This document shows positions 1 to 46,707 of a stretch of 56,647 bases of DNA, piece after piece. A program made the position numbers and the translations under genes. Below the pieces are notes generated by a model. It was not told the origin of the DNA. It searched no databases and worked only from the letters and a program-made list of their open reading frames with translations. The first letter of the stretch is position 1. Each line of letters opens with the position of its first letter. The DNA is from Candidatus Omnitrophota bacterium (GTDB lineage Bacteria > Omnitrophota > Gorgyraeia > JAHJTE01), in assembly GCA_040753675.1 (NCBI GenBank), contig JBFMEB010000011.1, forward strand, positions 1-56,647, given 5' to 3'.

Positions 1-120
1 TGCCTACAGCAGGCCGAACGGTAGCACGCGGGATACGGGAGCGCCGGCCCAGGCGCGGTGTCTAAAGTTCATTGAATTTTAAAGAACGAATAAAGCGTAT
101 TGTAAAGCCGAAGCATAAGG

Positions 121-171
121 TCATCCGTAGGTTTGCAGAAAGACCATTTGATTTTTCATTTTTTTCTTCAT
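121..171 (-). pseudogene. 5' fragment of miaB (copy C): MKKKMKNQMVFLQTYG-stop
   Basis: Hand translation matches the MiaB N-terminal motif [VI][YF][IL]xT[YF]G-CQMN up to the Gly. The Cys codon position is TGA, then unrelated sequence. Starts 17 bp after the upstream stop codon. Confidence 0.65.
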
Positions 172-187
172 AGGATGATACTTTTCC

Positions 188-877
188 TTACTCGTGTTGC
201 TTATTGTTTTTGCGAAAGGCAAGAAGAAAGATGACCGCGGTAAAGATTAAAATAACTAATGAAAGTTCCAGAATCTCATCAAAAAATTCGCTAAAACCGA
301 ACAGTTTTACGTCTTGCCAAATCTCTATTATAAAAATAGCTGTTATGGTTGCTATTAATGGTACCAATTCCTTTTTAAGCCAAGATAATTTTAACAAAAA
401 TATGTAGTTCTTAAAATCTGATAGCCCGCGGATATTAGGAAAGTATTTCGAAACTGACTTGCAATAATTTTTATAGTCTTCGCCAAATCGCTCTAACAAT
501 ATTTTTTCTTCTTTATTTACTTGAGGAATATAAATAGAAAAATAAATAATAAGAAATATTAGCAGTGTCCACAATCTAAGCAAGATTGCTATAACTCCAG
601 TTCCAATCAGCAGTGTTCCAAAATACATGGGATTTCTCATCAAAGAGTAAGGTCCATTTATAACAAGCCTACTGCCTCCGTGGGATGTTTCTTCTTTGTG
701 CCCCCTTGCCACAATGCGTAAAAGGAATCCAAATAAAACTGATAGTATTCCAACTATATCGAAAAATTCATCTGCGGGTCCTTCTTTCCAACTTGCGATT
801 GTAAATCTGGCAAACATAATAAATAAAAGTACCACAAGAAATATGAACATGCCCTGAATTCTAATTCTCTTCTTCAT
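188..877 (-). CDS. Isoprenylcysteine carboxyl methyltransferase (ICMT/PEMT) family membrane protein
   Basis: Motif LVINGPYSLMRNPMYFG...EEKILLERFGEDYKNY, plus several TM segments. Confidence 0.85.
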   Translation of the reverse strand: MKKRIRIQGMFIFLVVLLFIMFARFTIASWKEGPADEFFDIVGILSVLFGFLLRIVARGHKEETSHGGSRLVINGPYSLMRNPMYFGTLLIGTGVIAILLRLWTLLIFLIIYFSIYIPQVNKEEKILLERFGEDYKNYCKSVSKYFPNIRGLSDFKNYIFLLKLSWLKKELVPLIATITAIFIIEIWQDVKLFGFSEFFDEILELSLVILIFTAVIFLLAFRKNNKQHE

Positions 878-914
878 TTATTAACGCTTCCCCTTCCCAC
901 CCATGGTCCGTCTT

Positions 915-968
915 TTAGGTGTCCATCAGCCAGCCAAAGGTAGCAATGTAAATACGTTTGTTATTCAT
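915..968 (-). pseudogene. 5' fragment of miaB (copy B): MNNKRIYIATFGWLMDT-stop
   Basis: IYIATFG followed by TGG CTG ATG GAC, which is 3 substitutions from TGC CAG ATG AAC (CQMN). Starts 21 bp after the upstream stop codon. Confidence 0.7.
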
Positions 969-988
969 TGATATTAATCAAAAATCTT

Positions 989-2017
989 TCATTTATTTTT
1001 TAGAAAATTAGTTTTTATATAATCTGTTAGATATTGGCCGCAAACTTTTTGGCCTTTCTCCGTCCAATGATCATCATTTCTTTCCCACTTTCTACCTTCT
1101 GCGGCCCATGCCAATCTCGGTATCTCTTCAAGAAAATTAATATTATAATGGCGAAATATATTTTTAAAATGGCTAAAATACGGCTCGTCATCAAAAACAG
1201 GGAATGCAATAAGAGAGGCCCGTCCACACCTTTTTTTAATCATCCCCATTAATTCCGCAGTCGTGTCTACCGAGCGCTTAAATCCCTCTAAACGGTCTCC
1301 TTCGGATTGAACATATTCTTCTATAGTCCTTAGATAGCCCTTATTGTTTAATTCCACTAATATCCTATCAAAATGATATGATATAAAATAAGCTAAACGT
1401 GAATACGGAATAATGTAACCTCTGAAAAAAGGCCCCCTGGGGAAACGATACTTAATTTGCCCATTTTCGTAATACGGCCTTACCTTGTGATTATTATGAA
1501 TAAAACTTTTTCTCTCTAAGTCCCAATCGTTATTGATAAAGTCGTTACTGCATGTTTGTAACACTACCAAATCTGGTCTAATGTTATCAATATATTTATC
1601 TATCACCAAATACTCCTGTAATGTCCCATATCCTGACGCGCCATATACAAATAATTCTATGCCTAACTTCCTGCTAACAACATCATAATACATATCCTTC
1701 TTATCCAAATACTGAGCTGTAAAAGAATCTCCAATAAAGAATATCTTCATCTTTTTATCAGACTGCGAGTCACCCATGATTTTTGTACCTCCCCAACCTA
1801 ATAGGGGATCATAACGCCTAACACGTGTTTTAGCAAGAAACGGCACGTTATATCTGGATTGAAAATAAACTCTTAAAGTCATTTCGAGGGCACATAGTAA
1901 GATAAAAATAGACATTATCACTAAGAATAGAATATTAAAAAGAATTTTCCTCTTCCATTTAGACAAAGATGAAGATGGAACTATTTTTTGCTCACTATCG
2001 ACCTTATTCATAGTCAC
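989..2017 (-). CDS. SGNH/GDSL hydrolase family protein with N-terminal membrane anchor
   Basis: Block I FIGDSFT, GASGYGT, block III ND, and DDHW (DxxH-type). Confidence 0.85.
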   Translation of the reverse strand: MTMNKVDSEQKIVPSSSLSKWKRKILFNILFLVIMSIFILLCALEMTLRVYFQSRYNVPFLAKTRVRRYDPLLGWGGTKIMGDSQSDKKMKIFFIGDSFTAQYLDKKDMYYDVVSRKLGIELFVYGASGYGTLQEYLVIDKYIDNIRPDLVVLQTCSNDFINNDWDLERKSFIHNNHKVRPYYENGQIKYRFPRGPFFRGYIIPYSRLAYFISYHFDRILVELNNKGYLRTIEEYVQSEGDRLEGFKRSVDTTAELMGMIKKRCGRASLIAFPVFDDEPYFSHFKNIFRHYNINFLEEIPRLAWAAEGRKWERNDDHWTEKGQKVCGQYLTDYIKTNFLKNK

Positions 2018-2048
2018 CTATTCTATTCAATATTTCAAGTAGAATCGC

Positions 2049-2092
2049 TCAGCCAGAAGTCTTGATATAAACTGACTGATATTGGTTGTCAT
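2049..2092 (-). pseudogene. Degenerate 5' fragment of miaB (copy A): MTTNI/SVYIKTSG-stop
   Basis: GTT TAT ATC AAG ACT TCT GGC TGA (VYIKTSG-stop). The ATG at 2092 is one base out of frame and lies 10 bp after the upstream stop codon. Confidence 0.55.
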
Positions 2093-2101
2093 CTCTTGAA
2101 C

Positions 2102-3766
2102 CTATAAAAGCCTTATCAAATCTTTCTTCAATAACCACATAATATGAAATTTTGCTAAAGATAACTCCGCATGCGAAATATCGTTGGCATATTTTACTAA
2201 CTGATCAATCGTAGCATTTTTATTGTCAAAGAGAAAAAGCAATATAATATAAATCACCGGGAGCGAAATAACTTCTTGCAATTCCTCGGGTATTTTAAAG
2301 GGTAATTTCTTTAGCTTAAGAAATAAAAGACCATTTTTACTCATAGTAAGCCTAATTCTCCCATCTAGAACCCGAGTAGGATAATGGTGAAATGATTCGA
2401 AATATCTCCTTCCCGGATGCCAGCTTGGCTTCTTAGCTATTCTAACTGCATTAGCTAATTCATATAATTTCACCCACAATTTTTCATATGCAGGTATCAA
2501 GATTTTCCAATCATAGATATTTAAAGCATTATTTCTTGCATTACGTCCAAATCTTAAACGCAACGCCTTATTCCTAACTAAAATTGATAAATACTCTGCG
2601 AGTTTTCCGACATCAATGCAGAGAGATTGTGCTAAATAAAGATGATCTAACACCCAAGGACCTTGGGGGTGAACGGGACAGACAGGCAGCAGGTCTTGAA
2701 TATTACAATCTAACCAATAACTAGGTACCCGAAATCCCGTCTGGTTATGAATGACTGTATCTTTATGACCATCCCAATCCGACACAATTGTCGCTAACCC
2801 CGCGGCCATTGCTTCAAGGACAGTGATTCCAAAAGACTCTTGAATATTGTCACTAGGAGAAACAAAAATATCGGCTGCCTCGTACAACAGATATTTTTTA
2901 TCTAAGAAATTACGAAATATAAATTTTGTATTCTGGGCCAGCCCCATTTCCGCGGCAACACGTTTAAGTTTTTGTCCGTATTTATGTTGCACATCGGTCC
3001 CTGCCAATAATAAAATAATATTGCCTTTCTTTCTTATTATTTCTTTAAGGGCAACCAAGAGCGGATAAAGATCTGCTTTATCGTAAAGAGAGAAACGCCC
3101 AAAATAAAGAATTACGATTTTATTCTTATCTATCCCGAGTTCTCTTCTAGCTTTTAATTTATCGGATATATTGTAACTGCCGGCATCTATGCCAAAAGGC
3201 AAAAGATCCAGCCTGCCGGTATAATGGATTTCTGAAGAAAAATTTTTTAAAAAATATGTACCTAATATCCTGTTATATTGTTCTACCACTTTAAGAACAG
3301 AATGACTAGTGCAAATAATCGAGTCGAAAGGATAAACCCGAGCCGTAAAATTGTTAAAAAAATCCTGATTGAGTTTAAAATGATAACTTATACTTTCAAA
3401 GACAATACCGCATATGGGAAAATATTTTTTAGCATATTTAGAGCGAAGATAGACCAGTTTAGAAATATCAGAACTGCAAGTAAAAAAAACCGTATAATCT
3501 GTTTTGCTAAGATATTTGCCTAATTCCTTCATATTTACTATTTTTATTTTATCAAGGTCAATATTAAGAGTCAGAAGATTCCTCTTGATAATATCTTCGG
3601 ATCTCCTTGAATCAACAAAAAGGTGATATTCATCAAAACTGCCATACTTAAGCAAGCCTTTGTAAAAGCTGCGCGCTCCTACCCATGCACCATAGACCCA
3701 ACTATCATTACTAATGTCCCAGGCCATAGGAAATGAGCTTGGGTCAATAGTTCCAAATATTTTCAT
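2102..3766 (-). CDS. Glycosyltransferase family 4 (GT-B) with C-terminal extension
   Basis: LYFGR, ADIFVSPS, ESFGITVLEAMAAGL (E-x7-E motif). Confidence 0.9.
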   Translation of the reverse strand: MKIFGTIDPSSFPMAWDISNDSWVYGAWVGARSFYKGLLKYGSFDEYHLFVDSRRSEDIIKRNLLTLNIDLDKIKIVNMKELGKYLSKTDYTVFFTCSSDISKLVYLRSKYAKKYFPICGIVFESISYHFKLNQDFFNNFTARVYPFDSIICTSHSVLKVVEQYNRILGTYFLKNFSSEIHYTGRLDLLPFGIDAGSYNISDKLKARRELGIDKNKIVILYFGRFSLYDKADLYPLLVALKEIIRKKGNIILLLAGTDVQHKYGQKLKRVAAEMGLAQNTKFIFRNFLDKKYLLYEAADIFVSPSDNIQESFGITVLEAMAAGLATIVSDWDGHKDTVIHNQTGFRVPSYWLDCNIQDLLPVCPVHPQGPWVLDHLYLAQSLCIDVGKLAEYLSILVRNKALRLRFGRNARNNALNIYDWKILIPAYEKLWVKLYELANAVRIAKKPSWHPGRRYFESFHHYPTRVLDGRIRLTMSKNGLLFLKLKKLPFKIPEELQEVISLPVIYIILLFLFDNKNATIDQLVKYANDISHAELSLAKFHIMWLLKKDLIRLL

Positions 3767-3842
3767 CTCGCCCCCTAATTTCTAAATTCAATATGAATAG
3801 TCTCCGAGAATATGAACAGTTAAGAAACAAAAAGGCTTTTGC

Positions 3843-4625
3843 CTACCTCGGTCTAGCTATAACATAACCAATAGTATCATCATCTAAATAAATTTCTTCT
3901 ATTTTAAAACCAGATGCCTTTAGTTCCATCACTGCCTCATCCTTATTATAAAAATAATGGAGGAATTCATATTCGCCTTTTAATTCATCTCCAGCTTGAT
4001 AGCCAAGATTACCTAAGGTTAAATATCCTATTGCCTTTAATAATGATGTGCGATAGGTTGGCGTGAGTTCCTTTTTACTTAAGAAGGTAAGTATGAATAG
4101 TCCGTTGGGCTTTAGAATATCTCTCAATTTCTTTAAAAATTTTATTCTTAAGTTATACGTAGGGATAGAACTATATGTTCCAGAGAAGATGCCTGCATAA
4201 TCAAAGGAAAATTTAGGAAAAGAAATACGGCTTATATCTTGTGTTTCGAAAACCAAGTTAAGCCCTCTTTCCTTTGCGTTTCTTCTTGCAACATCTACCA
4301 TGCCTTCAATAAAGTCAACGCCTACAACTTCAAAACCAGCTTTAGCTAAAGCGATTGCCTCCCTGCCACCTCCACAGCCTAAAACTAAGAATTTACCGCC
4401 TATTATCTTGTATTTCTCTATTATCTTTTTTTCTTCAGGTAATAAAACAGGGACGGCATTCCCAAAATTCCTGATGTATTCATTTCTTGTATATTGCAAT
4501 TTATTACTTTCAATTAAATCTCGAGGAGTTAAGATAACTAAATATAATCTTCTTAGATAATATGAGACTTTAAGTAAAAATAAACCTATATACAATCTTA
4601 TGCGCATATATTTTAAAATTCTCAA
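3843..4625 (-). CDS. Class I SAM-dependent methyltransferase (start may be ATG at 4607)
   Basis: LVLGCGGGRE, VVGVD, SFD, LKPNG motifs. Confidence 0.9.
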   Translation of the reverse strand: MRILKYMRIRLYIGLFLLKVSYYLRRLYLVILTPRDLIESNKLQYTRNEYIRNFGNAVPVLLPEEKKIIEKYKIIGGKFLVLGCGGGREAIALAKAGFEVVGVDFIEGMVDVARRNAKERGLNLVFETQDISRISFPKFSFDYAGIFSGTYSSIPTYNLRIKFLKKLRDILKPNGLFILTFLSKKELTPTYRTSLLKAIGYLTLGNLGYQAGDELKGEYEFLHYFYNKDEAVMELKASGFKIEEIYLDDDTIGYVIARPR

Positions 4626-4632
4626 TTAATAT

Positions 4633-4641
4633 ATTATAGCA
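4633..4641 (-). promoter_or_regulatory. Extended -10 promoter (TGcTATAAT) reading leftward into the methyltransferase/GT4/SGNH/ICMT run
   Basis: Perfect TGnTATAAT just upstream of the methyltransferase gene. Confidence 0.55.
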
Positions 4642-4728
4642 GGAAATTGACTTTGGTAAGAAAAATTTTCTGTAAGAAAATGGACAGGGTAAAAAGAAAA
4701 AACCTAAGGAAGTGCTAAACTAAGCTTT

Positions 4729-5331
4729 TCAAAATAATGCCTGAAACTTTTCAATTTCTGCCTTAACATCGCACTTTGTTACTACCGCAGATATCGCGCA
4801 TAAGCCATCAGCTCCGGCATCAATGACTTTGCCTGCATTAAAAAGAGTTATCCCCCCAATTGCAATTATCGGGATTCTAATGTGTTTTCTTATTTGCCTT
4901 ATCAGCTCAACACCAGTAGGCCTTCCTGCATCTGCCTTTGTCTTTGTAGCAAAAATAGGAGATATGCTTATATAATCTGCCCCTAATCTTTGCGCTTTCA
5001 GCGCCTCGTCTATATTATGTGCGGTAACTCCAATTATTTTTTTCTTACCGAGTAGTTTACGGGCAACGGGAAACGGCACGTCGTCATTGCCGATATGCAC
5101 TCCGTCTGCATCAACTGCTAAAGCTATATCAATCCGGTCATTTATAAGAAAATTTATTTTTTTACAAATTTTTCTTAAACTTAGGGCCTCATTATACATC
5201 TCTATAGTGCTTCTGTTTTTTTCTCTGTATTGTACTACCTTCACATTCGCACTAAGCGCAGCTTTTACATCTCTGACATTGCCGACACGGCTTAGTTTAG
5301 AGTCAGTTATAAAATAGTAACCCCTTATCAT
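4729..5331 (-). CDS. thiE: Thiamine phosphate synthase
   Basis: QYREK, INDRIDIA..DGVHIG, IFATKTK, AIGGI; in a thiamine operon. Confidence 0.95.
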   Translation of the reverse strand: MIRGYYFITDSKLSRVGNVRDVKAALSANVKVVQYREKNRSTIEMYNEALSLRKICKKINFLINDRIDIALAVDADGVHIGNDDVPFPVARKLLGKKKIIGVTAHNIDEALKAQRLGADYISISPIFATKTKADAGRPTGVELIRQIRKHIRIPIIAIGGITLFNAGKVIDAGADGLCAISAVVTKCDVKAEIEKFQALF

Positions 5332-45561: not shown

Positions 45562-46707
45562 TTATACACCTTGAGATAACTTGTCACGTTTTAATTTTGA
45601 AAATGATTTCTTGTTATGTAATAAACTATAGAGAGCAGTTACTTTTGCACATTTCCTAAATCGTTGCTGCTTTATTATGGCACTTATTTGACCAGGCATT
45701 GAACTCGCCTTGGTATTTGGTCTTTTAGAATAATTGAAAAATTGGATAAACACGCCTTTAGAACTTAGCCATTCTACTAGTTTAAGGGTGTCTAGAAAAT
45801 CCCTCTTCGTCTCTGATGGAAAGCCAACTATGATATCTGTCTTTAATTCAAGTTTTGGATTCCATTCAATTATTTTTTCTATACAATATTTAAAATCATC
45901 CACAGTGTATGGCCTTTCCATTAATTGGATTATTCGATCACTGCCCGATTGCACCGGTATATTCATACGCAAAATTTTACCTGACCGGATTATATCTTCT
46001 AAAGACGGCAGCATTTCTTTTAACTTGTTAGGGGTAAAATGAGACAAGAAGAATTTACATTCACTGTGTTCTTGGTAAAGTTTATTAACTAGAAAGGCAA
46101 GAGATGTTGACAGATCTAGGCCATAGCTTCCGGCATCATTTGCTACTAAAACAAATTTTTTATAGCCCTTCTCGTAAGCTAAATGGTATTCCTTAAGTAT
46201 ATCTTCAATTGGCCTACTGCGGGGCCTTCCAAAAACAAATTTTACTGCACAATAAGTACACTTGCCGAAACAGCCCCAGCCTATCCTAAGATGATATACG
46301 TCTTTTCTCTCAATTCTTTTTAAGTTTTTGACAGGATATATATATTTTGTGATGCTAAACTGAGAACTCTTACTTAATAATTTTTCTAATTCACCCAGAG
46401 AATTCGCACTTATGGCAAGGCCTTTAAATATACGTTTAAGCCGGACTTTATTAATAGAAGGAAGACAACCTGATACAATTAACTGCGCATTTGGATTTTT
46501 TTCTTTTTCAGCTTTCTTAATATAATCTATTGAATTGTCTTCTGCTTGCTTTGAACAGGCACAGGTATATACAATAACGATATTAGATGACTCTATCTTT
46601 CTCGCTAATCTCCAGCCATTATTGTTTAAATAAGTCTTAATTAAAGTTAAATCTGTAAAACCTGGAGTACATCCGATATTTGTGTCTATCAAAAATGCTC
46701 TTTTCAT
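45562..46707 (-). CDS. MiaB/RimO-like radical SAM protein (UPF0004 + rSAM, no TRAM domain)
   Basis: GC..D and YTCA in the N-domain, SGCLP, CFGKCTYC, PVQSGSD, DIIVGFP.ET, YS.RP.T.A. Confidence 0.8.
   Translation of the reverse strand: MKRAFLIDTNIGCTPGFTDLTLIKTYLNNNGWRLARKIESSNIVIVYTCACSKQAEDNSIDYIKKAEKEKNPNAQLIVSGCLPSINKVRLKRIFKGLAISANSLGELEKLLSKSSQFSITKYIYPVKNLKRIERKDVYHLRIGWGCFGKCTYCAVKFVFGRPRSRPIEDILKEYHLAYEKGYKKFVLVANDAGSYGLDLSTSLAFLVNKLYQEHSECKFFLSHFTPNKLKEMLPSLEDIIRSGKILRMNIPVQSGSDRIIQLMERPYTVDDFKYCIEKIIEWNPKLELKTDIIVGFPSETKRDFLDTLKLVEWLSSKGVFIQFFNYSKRPNTKASSMPGQISAIIKQQRFRKCAKVTALYSLLHNKKSFSKLKRDKLSQGV

What the first reader, a model, noticed from the sequence alone, without database searches (positions are those of the whole stretch)
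121..2092. Candidate integron-like cassette array built by repeated integration into the 5' end of miaB
Seen: three consecutive intergenic gaps each hold a short frame starting 10-21 bp after the upstream stop codon. They read MKKKMKNQMVFLQTYG-stop (121-171), MNNKRIYIATFGWLMDT-stop (915-968) and MTTNI/SVYIKTSG-stop (2049-2092, one-base frameshift). All three leave the consensus at the same position, after GG(C/A)-TG. They differ from each other in DNA sequence, so they are not a recent local duplication. Established: MiaB begins [VI][YF]IxT[FY]GCQMN, and that Cys binds the auxiliary Fe-S cluster. Elements that integrate in a gene's 5' end often carry a replacement 5' end. Inference: each unit is one cargo gene plus a replacement miaB start, inserted at the Gly-Cys codons. 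Each insertion restores miaB and strands the previous start. The rightmost copy is the most decayed, which fits growth toward an intact miaB left of the window. I do not know of a described cassette-capture system using miaB as its site.
Basis: partly seen in the sequence, partly recalled or inferred. Interest (0 to 1): 0.9.

Follow-up and report, generated by a model that had tools for sequence, protein, structure and literature searches.

The report
Stacked mobile islands at miaB start
Three leftover beginnings of the tRNA-modification gene miaB mark where mobile gene islands, probably moved by a large serine recombinase, inserted one after another into the gene's start, each bringing a fresh start with it.

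Summary
Three MiaB N-terminal fragments lie on the minus strand at 121-171, 915-968 and 2049-2092. The protein motif has only 10 six-frame hits in the 1.78-Mb genome, and 5 of them belong to this system.

The window is the start of contig C11. Its first 127 bases, the assembler's overlap length, equal the start of contig C44. C44 carries a large serine recombinase (LSR) directly upstream of an intact miaB, followed by miaA.

Eight of nine LSR loci with at least 44% identity in related genomes also abut the miaB start. Record titles of matching loci read Candidatus Omnitrophota.

The promoter plus first 23 codons of miaB is a mobile module. It is nearly identical across families up to GGNTG, after which the gene body diverges (51% protein identity overall).

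Relatives hold similar arrays with variable cargo: restriction-modification, toxin-antitoxin, trehalose and ABC-transporter genes. Two conserved left-end modules recur. X' (about 330 nt) follows fragment 1. Y' follows fragment 2.

Open points:
- No recombination was observed directly.
- The C11-C44 link is inferred.
- Fragment 3 has no outside support.
- An inverted attP-like site is unexplained.

The parts
1..121 (-). First 121 nt of X', the conserved left-end module (about 330 nt in relatives) of the element that follows fragment 1. The contig ends here because X' is a repeat in the assembly graph.
   Evidence: Identical to C44 1-121. The shared prefix is exactly 127 nt. It is 94% identical to X' of L040 over 78 nt. 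The same module follows miaB fragments in G034, G024, L031, L033, L040, L059, L060 and G059. GC is 0.53 against 0.38 for the genome. No Rfam family matches.
121..171 (-). Fragment 1: stranded miaB 5' end, MKKKMKNQMVFLQTYG-stop, joined to X' at TG (122-123). An attL-type junction.
   Evidence: A homologous ..FLQTYG-stop fragment exists in G002, a genome of the same family.
188..877 (-). Cargo gene of unit 2: membrane methyltransferase-like protein, 229 aa.
   Evidence: Pfam PEMT PF04191, E 2.6e-08, 34.7 bits against a cut-off of 25.
878..930 (-). Y' arm: conserved left-end module of unit 2, directly after the TG of fragment 2.
   Evidence: GCTGATGGACACCTAAAAGACGGAC.. aligns with the arms that follow miaB fragments in L059, G059:C62 and L060. 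Found in 2 of 201 class genomes, the window's own included.
915..968 (-). Fragment 2: stranded miaB 5' end, MNNKRIYIATFG, then W-L-M-D-T-stop read from the Y' arm. TG at 931-932.
   Evidence: The fragment MNNNRFYIITYGC in G002 is similar.
989..2017 (-). Cargo gene of unit 1: GDSL/SGNH-like hydrolase, 342 aa.
   Evidence: Pfam Lipase_GDSL PF00657, 29 bits against a cut-off of 23.6. Homologues (45% identity or less) occur in 11 of 201 class genomes, at other places.
2018..2049 (-). Right arm after fragment 3. Unique to this genome.
   Evidence: Pattern search with up to 3 mismatches: 1 of 201 genomes, the window's own.
2049..2092 (-). Fragment 3: the most decayed miaB 5' end, MTTNI / SVYIKTSG-stop, with a one-base frameshift and Ser for Phe/Tyr. 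TG at 2050-2051.
2102..3766 (-). Glycosyltransferase family 1 gene, 554 aa, upstream of fragment 3. Either host flank or older cargo; undecided.
   Evidence: Pfam Glycos_transf_1, E 1.7e-27. No miaB-like fragment lies in the next two gaps.

Best explanation
The three short frames are stranded 5' ends of miaB, left by successive site-specific insertions into the Gly-Cys codons (..TTYGGN-TG-..) of the gene.

Each inserted unit has three parts: a left-end arm (X', Y' or another type), cargo, and at its right end a replacement miaB start. The replacement start sometimes comes with a promoter. When a unit inserts, its own start is fused to the miaB body and keeps the gene working. The previous start is left behind, fused to the unit's left arm. 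Because the new junction again looks like the original target, the next unit can insert at the same place. An array then grows towards miaB.

The enzyme is most likely the large serine recombinase (LSR) that sits directly upstream of miaB on contig C44. Some units carry this LSR. Others carry no recombinase and would have to be moved in trans.

The inferred order in this genome is: thiM-thiE-MT-GT - frag3 | SGNH - frag2 | Y'-PEMT - frag1 | X' - (unbinned segment E) - inverted X'|R' - HhH-GPD, protease, LSR - R | miaB - SPOR - miaA - hflX.

Shown: the fragments, the shared junction point, the LSR-miaB adjacency in many genomes, the mobile 5' module, the variable cargo, and the recurrent arms. 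Inferred: that the LSR catalyses the events, the 2-bp TG crossover, the C11-C44 linkage, and the order of events.
For: (a) The motif is rare and clustered.

(b) C11 and C44 share exactly 127 nt at their ends. In both, X' is fused to a miaB fragment at GGATG|ACC.

(c) C44 holds an LSR with Resolvase, Recombinase and Zn_ribbon_recom domains (E 5.8e-44, 3.4e-21, 6.4e-10). It ends in the start of an intact MiaB (TIGR01574, 390.7 bits against a cut-off of 355.3), followed by miaA and hflX. No tyrosine recombinase lies on C11 or C44.

(d) In 41 related genomes, 25 have an LSR match. Of the 9 loci with at least 44% identity, 8 abut the miaB start: G022, G024, G034, G030, G001, G037, G027 and G009:C4. 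One, G009:C6, does not.

(e) The R module (about 86 nt upstream plus 23 codons) is nearly identical in G000, G022, G027, G034, L040 and L033 up to GGNTG, and similarity then drops. MiaB of G000 and G022 is 51% identical overall but 22 of 23 in the first residues.

(f) Complete architectures, host flank - f|X' - cargo - ... - LSR - R|miaB, are read through in G034 and G024.

(g) Direct tandem arrays occur:
- In L040, f|X' - AlwI-type restriction-modification genes - R|X'.
- In G032, three fragments lie within 3.3 kb with single-gene units.
- G023:C39 holds Fic genes between fragments.
- G002 holds three fragments.
- G059 has f|Y' - cargo - f|X', the same module order as the window.

(h) The same cassette occurs at the same kind of junction in two families. 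A methyltransferase that is 85% identical follows a fragment and a similar arm in G001 and G032. A DsrE gene that is 83% identical occurs in an LSR element (L033) and in the G002 array.

(i) The strict DNA pattern clusters on one contig in 8 of 41 genomes; 6 of these were read.
Against: - No recombination event was observed. No sequencing run could be listed, so no circular junction, empty site or coverage data were seen.
- The segment between C11 and C44 is not in the bin; the linkage rests on graph logic.
- The arm of fragment 3 is unique.
- In the 7 other genomes' loci fetched with SGNH homologues, no miaB fragment flanks the gene.
- G002 and G032 have arrays but no close LSR. G002 has no LSR match at E 1e-10. 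The best match in G032 has E 2.3e-29 and 32% identity. The two genomes are 92% and 97% complete.
- One of the nine close LSR loci is not at miaB.
- In G000, G024, G034, L033 and L060, and truncated in G022, a second R|X' site stands inverted upstream of the LSR unit. Simple conservative integration does not produce this.
- Homologous fragment types stand in opposite order in G000 and G002, so units have been reshuffled as well as stacked.
Confidence: 0.8

Rival explanations
1. A resident capture platform in the strict integron sense. One chromosomal LSR next to miaB captures small recombinase-less, promoterless cassettes (arm + gene + miaB start) and expresses them from the stranded miaB starts. 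The cassettes are not decayed selfish islands.
For: - Single-gene units stand only 9-20 nt from the next miaB start in the window, and G032 has single-gene units too.
- L040 holds a recombinase-less unit, X'-RM-R.
- Cargo is co-oriented with the upstream fragment in G024, G034, L031 and L040.
- The same methyltransferase cassette occurs in two families.
Against: - Many units are large and carry their own LSR, primase or other mobile-element genes.
- Arrays exist in genomes without a close LSR.
- No free cassette circles were seen.
- No expression data were obtained.
Confidence: 0.25
2. A programmed inversion switch. The LSR flips the segment between the inverted R' and R copies, or the segment between the inverted X' copies, to swap promoters or 5' ends of miaB or to control cargo. 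The fragments would be parts of the switch rather than scars.
For: - Perfect inverted repeats R'/R flank the LSR unit: 157 nt at 100% in G000 and 178 nt at 100% in G024.
- Inverted X' pairs 4-8 kb apart occur in G034, G008, G121 and G055.
- The R|X' module stands in either orientation after the same restriction-modification cargo in L040 and L060.
Against: - With identical R copies, an inversion changes no junction.
- Fragments 2 and 3 and the arrays in G032, G002, G023 and G059 are all direct, not inverted.
- In all 5 loci that show both the LSR and R', the LSR points towards miaB (G000, G024, G034, L033, L060).
- The LSR of G034 carries 2 stop codons, yet the architecture persists.
Confidence: 0.08
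3. The small units with Y' or other arms, including units 1 and 2 of the window, were inserted by a different recombinase that has not been identified. The LSR would serve only the R/X' elements.
For: - Arms fall into distinct types: X', Y', and an ACCGATGG..GATGAT type.
- G002 and G032 lack a close LSR.
- More distant LSR clades (44-52% identity) also sit at miaB without X' or R' repeats within about 10 kb.
Against: - L060 shows LSR - R|Y', so an R/X'-clade element is joined directly to a Y' arm.
- All arm types break at the same TG and share an inner NCNRWTGG motif that resembles the miaB body.
- No other recombinase gene was seen inside the arrays that were read.
Confidence: 0.15
4. Chance open frames, or remnants of duplicated miaB genes truncated by ordinary deletions.
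For: The frames are short (14-17 codons). Fragment 3 is frameshifted and has no outside support.
Against: Five of the genome's 10 motif hits belong to this system, three of them within 2.1 kb, in gaps and on the gene strand. All break at the same TG. The same break point with conserved arms is found in many other genomes.
Confidence: 0.02

Closest known systems
Staphylococcal cassette chromosome (SCC) elements with Ccr large serine recombinases at rlmH/orfX (biology recalled; the family match is)
   Same: - A large serine recombinase. The best NCBIfam matches of the C44 protein are CcrB (238 bits) and CcrC (185 bits), both far below their equivalog cut-offs of 900.
- One fixed site inside a conserved RNA-modification gene.
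- The target is regenerated, so elements stack into composite arrays that include recombinase-less units with variable cargo.
   Different: - The site is at the 5' end and needs a replacement start codon, sometimes with a promoter, instead of the 3' end.
- A different phylum; record titles of matching loci say Candidatus Omnitrophota.
- A conserved 330-nt X' module.
- An inverted attP-like site inside the element.
- Not a Ccr equivalog by score.
dusA-associated integrase islands (PMC4482086; abstract and passages read)
   Same: Islands and prophages insert in the 5' end of a tRNA-modification gene and replace that 5' end with island-borne sequence. The displaced 5' end remains at the far border.
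   Different: The enzyme there is a tyrosine integrase. The target is dusA, in Proteobacteria. The passages read do not describe arrays of several displaced starts. The same paper lists rimO, a MiaB-like gene, of Polaromonas as a target, but not miaB.
Integrons (recalled)
   Same: Arrays of small, often single-gene units of variable content next to a recombinase gene at a fixed site. New units enter at the end nearest the site.
   Different: There is no IntI tyrosine recombinase and no attC hairpin sites. Here each unit must rebuild an essential-looking host gene start. Units can be large and self-mobile.
tRNA/tmRNA-gene islands with regenerated target and displaced fragment (Islander; PMC4383910, abstract as listed)
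   Same: Insertion splits the target. The island restores it, and the displaced fragment marks the island's end.
   Different: The target here is a protein-coding 5' end and the enzyme a serine recombinase. The restored part includes the translation start.

Membership tests
Large serine recombinase / serine integrase | N-terminal resolvase catalytic domain with the catalytic serine motif | tested here: met
   PF00239, E 5.8e-44, residues 3-151. The sequence reads ..AIYIRVSTEDQ... The identity of the catalytic serine is recalled, not tested.
Large serine recombinase / serine integrase | C-terminal Recombinase domain and zinc beta-ribbon domain | tested here: met
   PF07508, E 3.4e-21, and PF13408, E 6.4e-10.
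Large serine recombinase / serine integrase | Short att sites with a 2-bp crossover; attP x attB gives attL and attR | tested here: inconclusive
   All junctions break at a shared TG, and the right arms share the motif NCNRWTGG. No cleavage or exchange was observed. attL and attP, and likewise attR and attB, are nearly alike here, which is unusual.
SCC Ccr recombinases (CcrA/B/C equivalogs) | Score above the NCBIfam equivalog cut-off | tested here: not met
   CcrB 238.3 bits against a cut-off of 900; CcrC 185.3 against 900.
Integron | IntI-type tyrosine recombinase next to the array | tested here: not met
   PF00589 has 4 hits in the genome, none on C11 or C44. The adjacent recombinase is a serine recombinase.
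Integron | attC recombination sites at cassette ends | not tested
   No attC model was run. Unit ends are instead miaB 5' fragments plus X'/Y' arms.
MiaB (target gene on C44) | Equivalog score, with UPF0004 and radical SAM domains | tested here: met
   TIGR01574, 390.7 bits against a cut-off of 355.3. PF00919 and PF04055 match. miaA lies two genes downstream. The C-terminal TRAM part of the profile (positions 373-437) is not matched.
5'-end-replacing genomic islands (dusA type) | The island supplies a new 5' end and the old 5' end is left at the far border | tested here: met
   The R module is conserved across families up to the junction while the gene body diverges. Displaced starts lie at the far border in G034, G024, L031 and L040.
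5'-end-replacing genomic islands (dusA type) | DusA-associated tyrosine integrase | tested here: not met
   The recombinase is an LSR.

The most novel reading that the evidence does not exclude
Omnitrophota carry an SCC-like or integron-like gene-capture platform built on the start of miaB. A serine recombinase parked in front of miaB takes in self-mobile islands and recombinase-less cassettes. Each is tagged with a conserved arm (X', Y' and others) and a spare miaB start. The stranded miaB starts then act as promoters and ribosome sites for the captured cargo. The 330-nt X' module is a structured RNA or an insulator that belongs to the system. The inverted R|X' site lets the composite element enter or flip in either orientation.
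Probability: 0.3. Interest if true: 0.8.

Novelty: new variant of a known kind. Interest (0 to 1): 0.62.

Why it matters
The locus shows how a mobile element can use the start of a conserved gene as its landing site without killing the gene, by carrying a spare promoter and first codons. It also shows that such a site can regenerate after each insertion and so collect a stack of cargo.

It defines a hotspot for defence and accessory genes in an uncultivated phylum: restriction-modification, HEPN/nucleotidyltransferase, AbiE, Fic, trehalose synthesis and ABC transport. The markers are simple: miaB-start fragments plus X' or Y' arms.

It also offers a family of serine recombinases with a well-defined natural target and many natural att variants. 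Such a family is the kind of material used to study site choice and directionality. Four full-text searches found no paper that links miaB with a serine recombinase or an integration site.

Tried and rejected
- RNA families. X was first suspected to be the end of a group II intron, an insertion sequence or an RNA gene. Rfam gave nothing at gathering level for the window. It gave nothing better than E 1.3 for bases 1-200, and nothing in X' for L019 and L020.
- Viral origin. The X' 19-mer has 0 matches in viral contigs.
- Reads. No run of the kind asked for was listed.
- The script machine was lost. All later work used the fixed tools, so no tree or systematic junction logo was made.
- Back-to-back pattern pairs in G003, G029, G023:C77 and G028 were considered as 'empty' elements. 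The pair read, in G003, is the natural palindrome CCNAAAGTC-TTTAT-CNGGACTTTCGG inside the miaB codons PKVFIRTFG. The other three pairs have the same spacing and were taken to be the same; they were not read.
- A palindromic attP (R|R') and a transposon with X' terminal repeats were considered for the inverted site. Both predict the same top-strand dinucleotide at both junctions. TG and CA are seen instead, so both were dropped. This is inference.
- SGNH homologues elsewhere (11 of 201 genomes; the 7 loci fetched from other genomes examined) are not flanked by fragments.
- The arm of fragment 3 has no match outside the window's own genome (1 of 201).
- Of the 11 genome-contig hits to the 19-mer, four (Bacteroidales, Flavobacterium, Psychroserpens, Methylomirabilota) were not examined. 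About 4 chance hits are expected by my own estimate for 596 Gb.
- Metagenome loci L058 and L061 were not read.
- Clusters in G028, G030 and G023:C77 were fetched but not read.
Full report
**The observation**

On the minus strand of the window three short frames follow three consecutive genes:
- MKKKMKNQMVFLQTYG-stop at 171->121.
- MNNKRIYIATFGWLMDT-stop at 968->915.
- MTTNI.. / ..SVYIKTSG-stop at 2092->2049, with a one-base shift.

The genes they follow are a family-1 glycosyltransferase (2102-3766), a GDSL/SGNH-like hydrolase (989-2017) and a PEMT/ICMT-like membrane protein (188-877).

A six-frame scan of the whole 1.78-Mb genome for [VILM][YFH][IVL].T[FYWS]G gave only 10 hits. Three are these frames. 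Two are on contig C44. Five lie inside long unrelated frames. The Pfam model of the MiaB N-terminal domain finds four full genes in the genome but not the fragments, which are too short.

**Where the window sits**

The window is contig C11 from its first base, so nothing lies to the left. Its first 127 bases are identical to the first 127 bases of contig C44, and many other contig ends overlap one another in the same way. This is the signature of a de Bruijn graph with k = 127: a repeat node leads into both contigs.

In both contigs the shared sequence, which I call X and whose minus-strand reading is X', is fused to a miaB 5' fragment at GGATG|ACCTTATGC.

C44 has the following layout:

| Position in C44 | Content |
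|---|---|
| 1-121 | X |
| 122-278 | R', an exact inverted copy of 3661-3817 |
| 284-1114 | HhH-GPD gene |
| 1164-2171 | trypsin-like protease gene |
| 2200-3825 | large serine recombinase (Resolvase, Recombinase, Zn ribbon) |
| 3747-4940 | intact miaB, starting inside the end of the LSR frame |
| downstream | SPOR/TPR gene, miaA, hflX |

MiaB passes the NCBIfam equivalog cut-off. The LSR's best named relatives are the SCC recombinases CcrB and CcrC, well below their cut-offs. No tyrosine recombinase lies on either contig.

**The same recombinase sits at the same place in relatives**

Among 41 related genomes (the window's own included), 25 have an LSR match at E 1e-10. Nine loci are at least 44% identical. 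In eight of them the LSR frame ends at or within about 40 nt of the miaB start motif: G022, G024, G034, G030, G001, G037, G027 and G009:C4. The ninth, G009:C6, lies next to a membrane protein gene. Record titles of loci that carry X' name Candidatus Omnitrophota.

**The miaB start is part of the mobile element**

The R module comprises about 86 nt upstream plus the first 23 codons (MPNQEPKKSYKxFAPKVFIRTFG). An alignment shows it to be nearly identical in G000, G022, G027, G034, L040 and L033 up to GGNTG. Similarity collapses after that point. MiaB of G000 and G022 is 51% identical overall but 22 of 23 in the first residues. In G034, L040 and L033 the same module is fused to X', not to miaB.

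**Whole elements read through**

In G034 the order is: host flank - r2'|X' - 4.1 kb (HEPN, nucleotidyltransferase and metallo-beta-lactamase-fold genes) - inverted X'|R' - nucleotidyltransferase, HEPN, LSR (2 stops) - r2|miaB.

In G024 the order is: host flank - MNRKFYIKTFG|X' - about 10.6 kb including an Eco57I-type enzyme - inverted X'|R' - 8.2 kb - LSR - R|miaB. R' and R are 178 nt and 100% complementary.

If the genome in hand has the same build, both C11 and C44 should stop inside X'. They do.

**Arrays and cassettes elsewhere**

| Source | Content |
|---|---|
| L040 | Direct tandem: f\|X' - AlwI-type restriction enzyme, two methylases, one more gene - R\|X', with no recombinase in the unit |
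| G032 | Three fragments in 3.3 kb, separated by a methyltransferase gene and a 522-aa gene |
| G023:C39 | Two fragments before miaB, with Fic genes between |
| G002 (same family as the window) | DsrE - ..FLQTYG-stop fragment - B12/radical SAM gene - MNNNRFYIITYGC fragment - two genes - miaB - SPOR - miaA |
| G001 (same family) | A fragment ..KAYIKTFGW 42.6 kb upstream of its LSR-miaB junction; primase and other genes in between |

The strict DNA pattern clusters on one contig in 8 of 41 genomes. I read six of them.

**Support for fragments 1 and 2 of the window**

Fragment 1 is fused to X'.

Fragment 2 is followed by GCTGATGGACACCTAAAAGACGGAC... The same arm, Y', follows miaB fragments in three other sources:
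- A metagenome contig (L059), where the cargo is a trehalose-phosphate synthase and phosphatase operon.
- G059:C62, where the cargo is an AAA ATPase plus a toxin-antitoxin pair, followed by f|X' and an AbiE pair. This is the same Y'-then-X' order as in the window.
- L060, directly after an LSR-R module.

The inner motif of the arm (NCNRWTGG) mimics the miaB codons CQMN.

Cassette mobility has two direct supports. A methyltransferase that is 85% identical follows a fragment and a similar arm in G001 and G032, two different families. A DsrE gene that is 83% identical lies in an LSR element (L033) and in the G002 array.

**What is not supported or not explained**

- The arm of fragment 3 occurs nowhere else (1 of 201).
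- SGNH homologues elsewhere are not flanked by fragments.
- G002 and G032 have arrays but no close LSR.
- The fragment types FLQTYG and MNN.R.YI stand in opposite order in G000 and G002, so the array is not a simple vertical record.
- In the R/X' clade a second R|X' site stands inverted between segment E and the LSR unit (G000, G024, G034, L033, L060; truncated in G022). After the same restriction-modification cargo, the module is direct in L040 and inverted in L060. Conservative serine recombination at an asymmetric TG does not create this, and I have no tested explanation.
- No read data could be obtained.

**X'**

Seven copies align over about 330 nt. RNAalifold predicts 57 pairs, and 17 of them show compensatory change in at least one sequence. 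Both strands of a full copy fold better than all 100 shuffles, with z = -2.6 (sense) and -5.3 (antisense). BLAST finds X' in 25 of 201 genomes of the class, several times as inverted pairs 4-8 kb apart. Its role is open: an RNA, a transcription stop after the stranded miaB start, or a protein-binding arm.

**Comparison with known systems and verdict**

The mechanism class is known: a site-specific recombinase, a regenerated target and displaced target fragments. The nearest parallels are SCC elements (LSR, RNA-modification gene, composite arrays; recalled) and the dusA islands, which replace the 5' end of a tRNA-modification gene using a tyrosine integrase (PMC4482086, passages read). That paper also names rimO as a target.

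Four full-text searches found no paper that links miaB with a serine recombinase or an integration site.

I file this as a new variant of a known kind.

Noticed in passing
window 1-121; L019 13313-13650 and 17560-17895; L020 2535-2873; L029 12269-12610; L040 446-790 and 5986-6301; L060 2546-2880: X' is a conserved, GC-rich module of about 330 nt that always follows a miaB fragment. Its hairpins covary: 17 of 57 predicted pairs show compensatory change. It matches no Rfam family. It occurs in 25 of 201 genomes of the class. Its function and active strand are unknown.
   Followed up: partly
L006 (contig C44) 122-278 and 3661-3817; L020 2874-3051 and 11305-11482: Perfect inverted copies of the miaB promoter-plus-start module flank the LSR unit. 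The outer one is fused to an inverted X'. Simple integration does not predict this attP-like site in reverse orientation, yet it recurs in at least five sources.
   Followed up: partly
L006 254-278, 1117-1144, 3658-3685: A 25-28-nt piece of the distal end of the R module (it reads KNIKIAHK in the LSR frame) is repeated on both sides of the HhH-GPD gene. That gene therefore looks like a separately inserted unit inside the LSR element.
   Followed up: no
L006 3747-4940: The MiaB here is 397 aa and matches only positions 1-372 of the 437-position TIGR01574 profile, so it seems to lack the C-terminal TRAM domain. The next gene (SPOR/TPR) overlaps its stop. MiaB frames of similar short length occur in G001 (385 aa) and G009 (393 aa).
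   Followed up: no
L006 2077-3825: The LSR reading frame runs through the whole R module and 79 nt into miaB. The same overlap is seen in G001, G024 and G009. The true LSR stop, or a functional overlap, was not examined.
   Followed up: no
L044 2362-2393 and the equivalent miaB codons in other genomes: The codons for PKVFIRTFG form a 13-bp inverted repeat (CATCCRAAAGTC..GGACTTTCGGATG) just upstream of the break point. This could be part of the recombinase's binding site.
   Followed up: no
window 46423-46680 (minus strand): A fourth MiaB/RimO-family gene (UPF0004 domain, 59 bits, open frame 381 aa) lies in the window, far from the array. Its N-terminus reads ..AFLIDTNIGCTPG...
   Followed up: no
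L033, L038, L039 (contigs of 2687-2688 nt): Three contigs of nearly equal length come from three different bins, two of them titled Planctomycetia/Planctomycetales. All three hold the X' 19-mer next to a miaB-start motif. In L033, the only one read, X|R' is followed by DsrE, ABC-transporter genes and the start of the LSR. This suggests mis-binning of a repeat-bounded piece.
   Followed up: no
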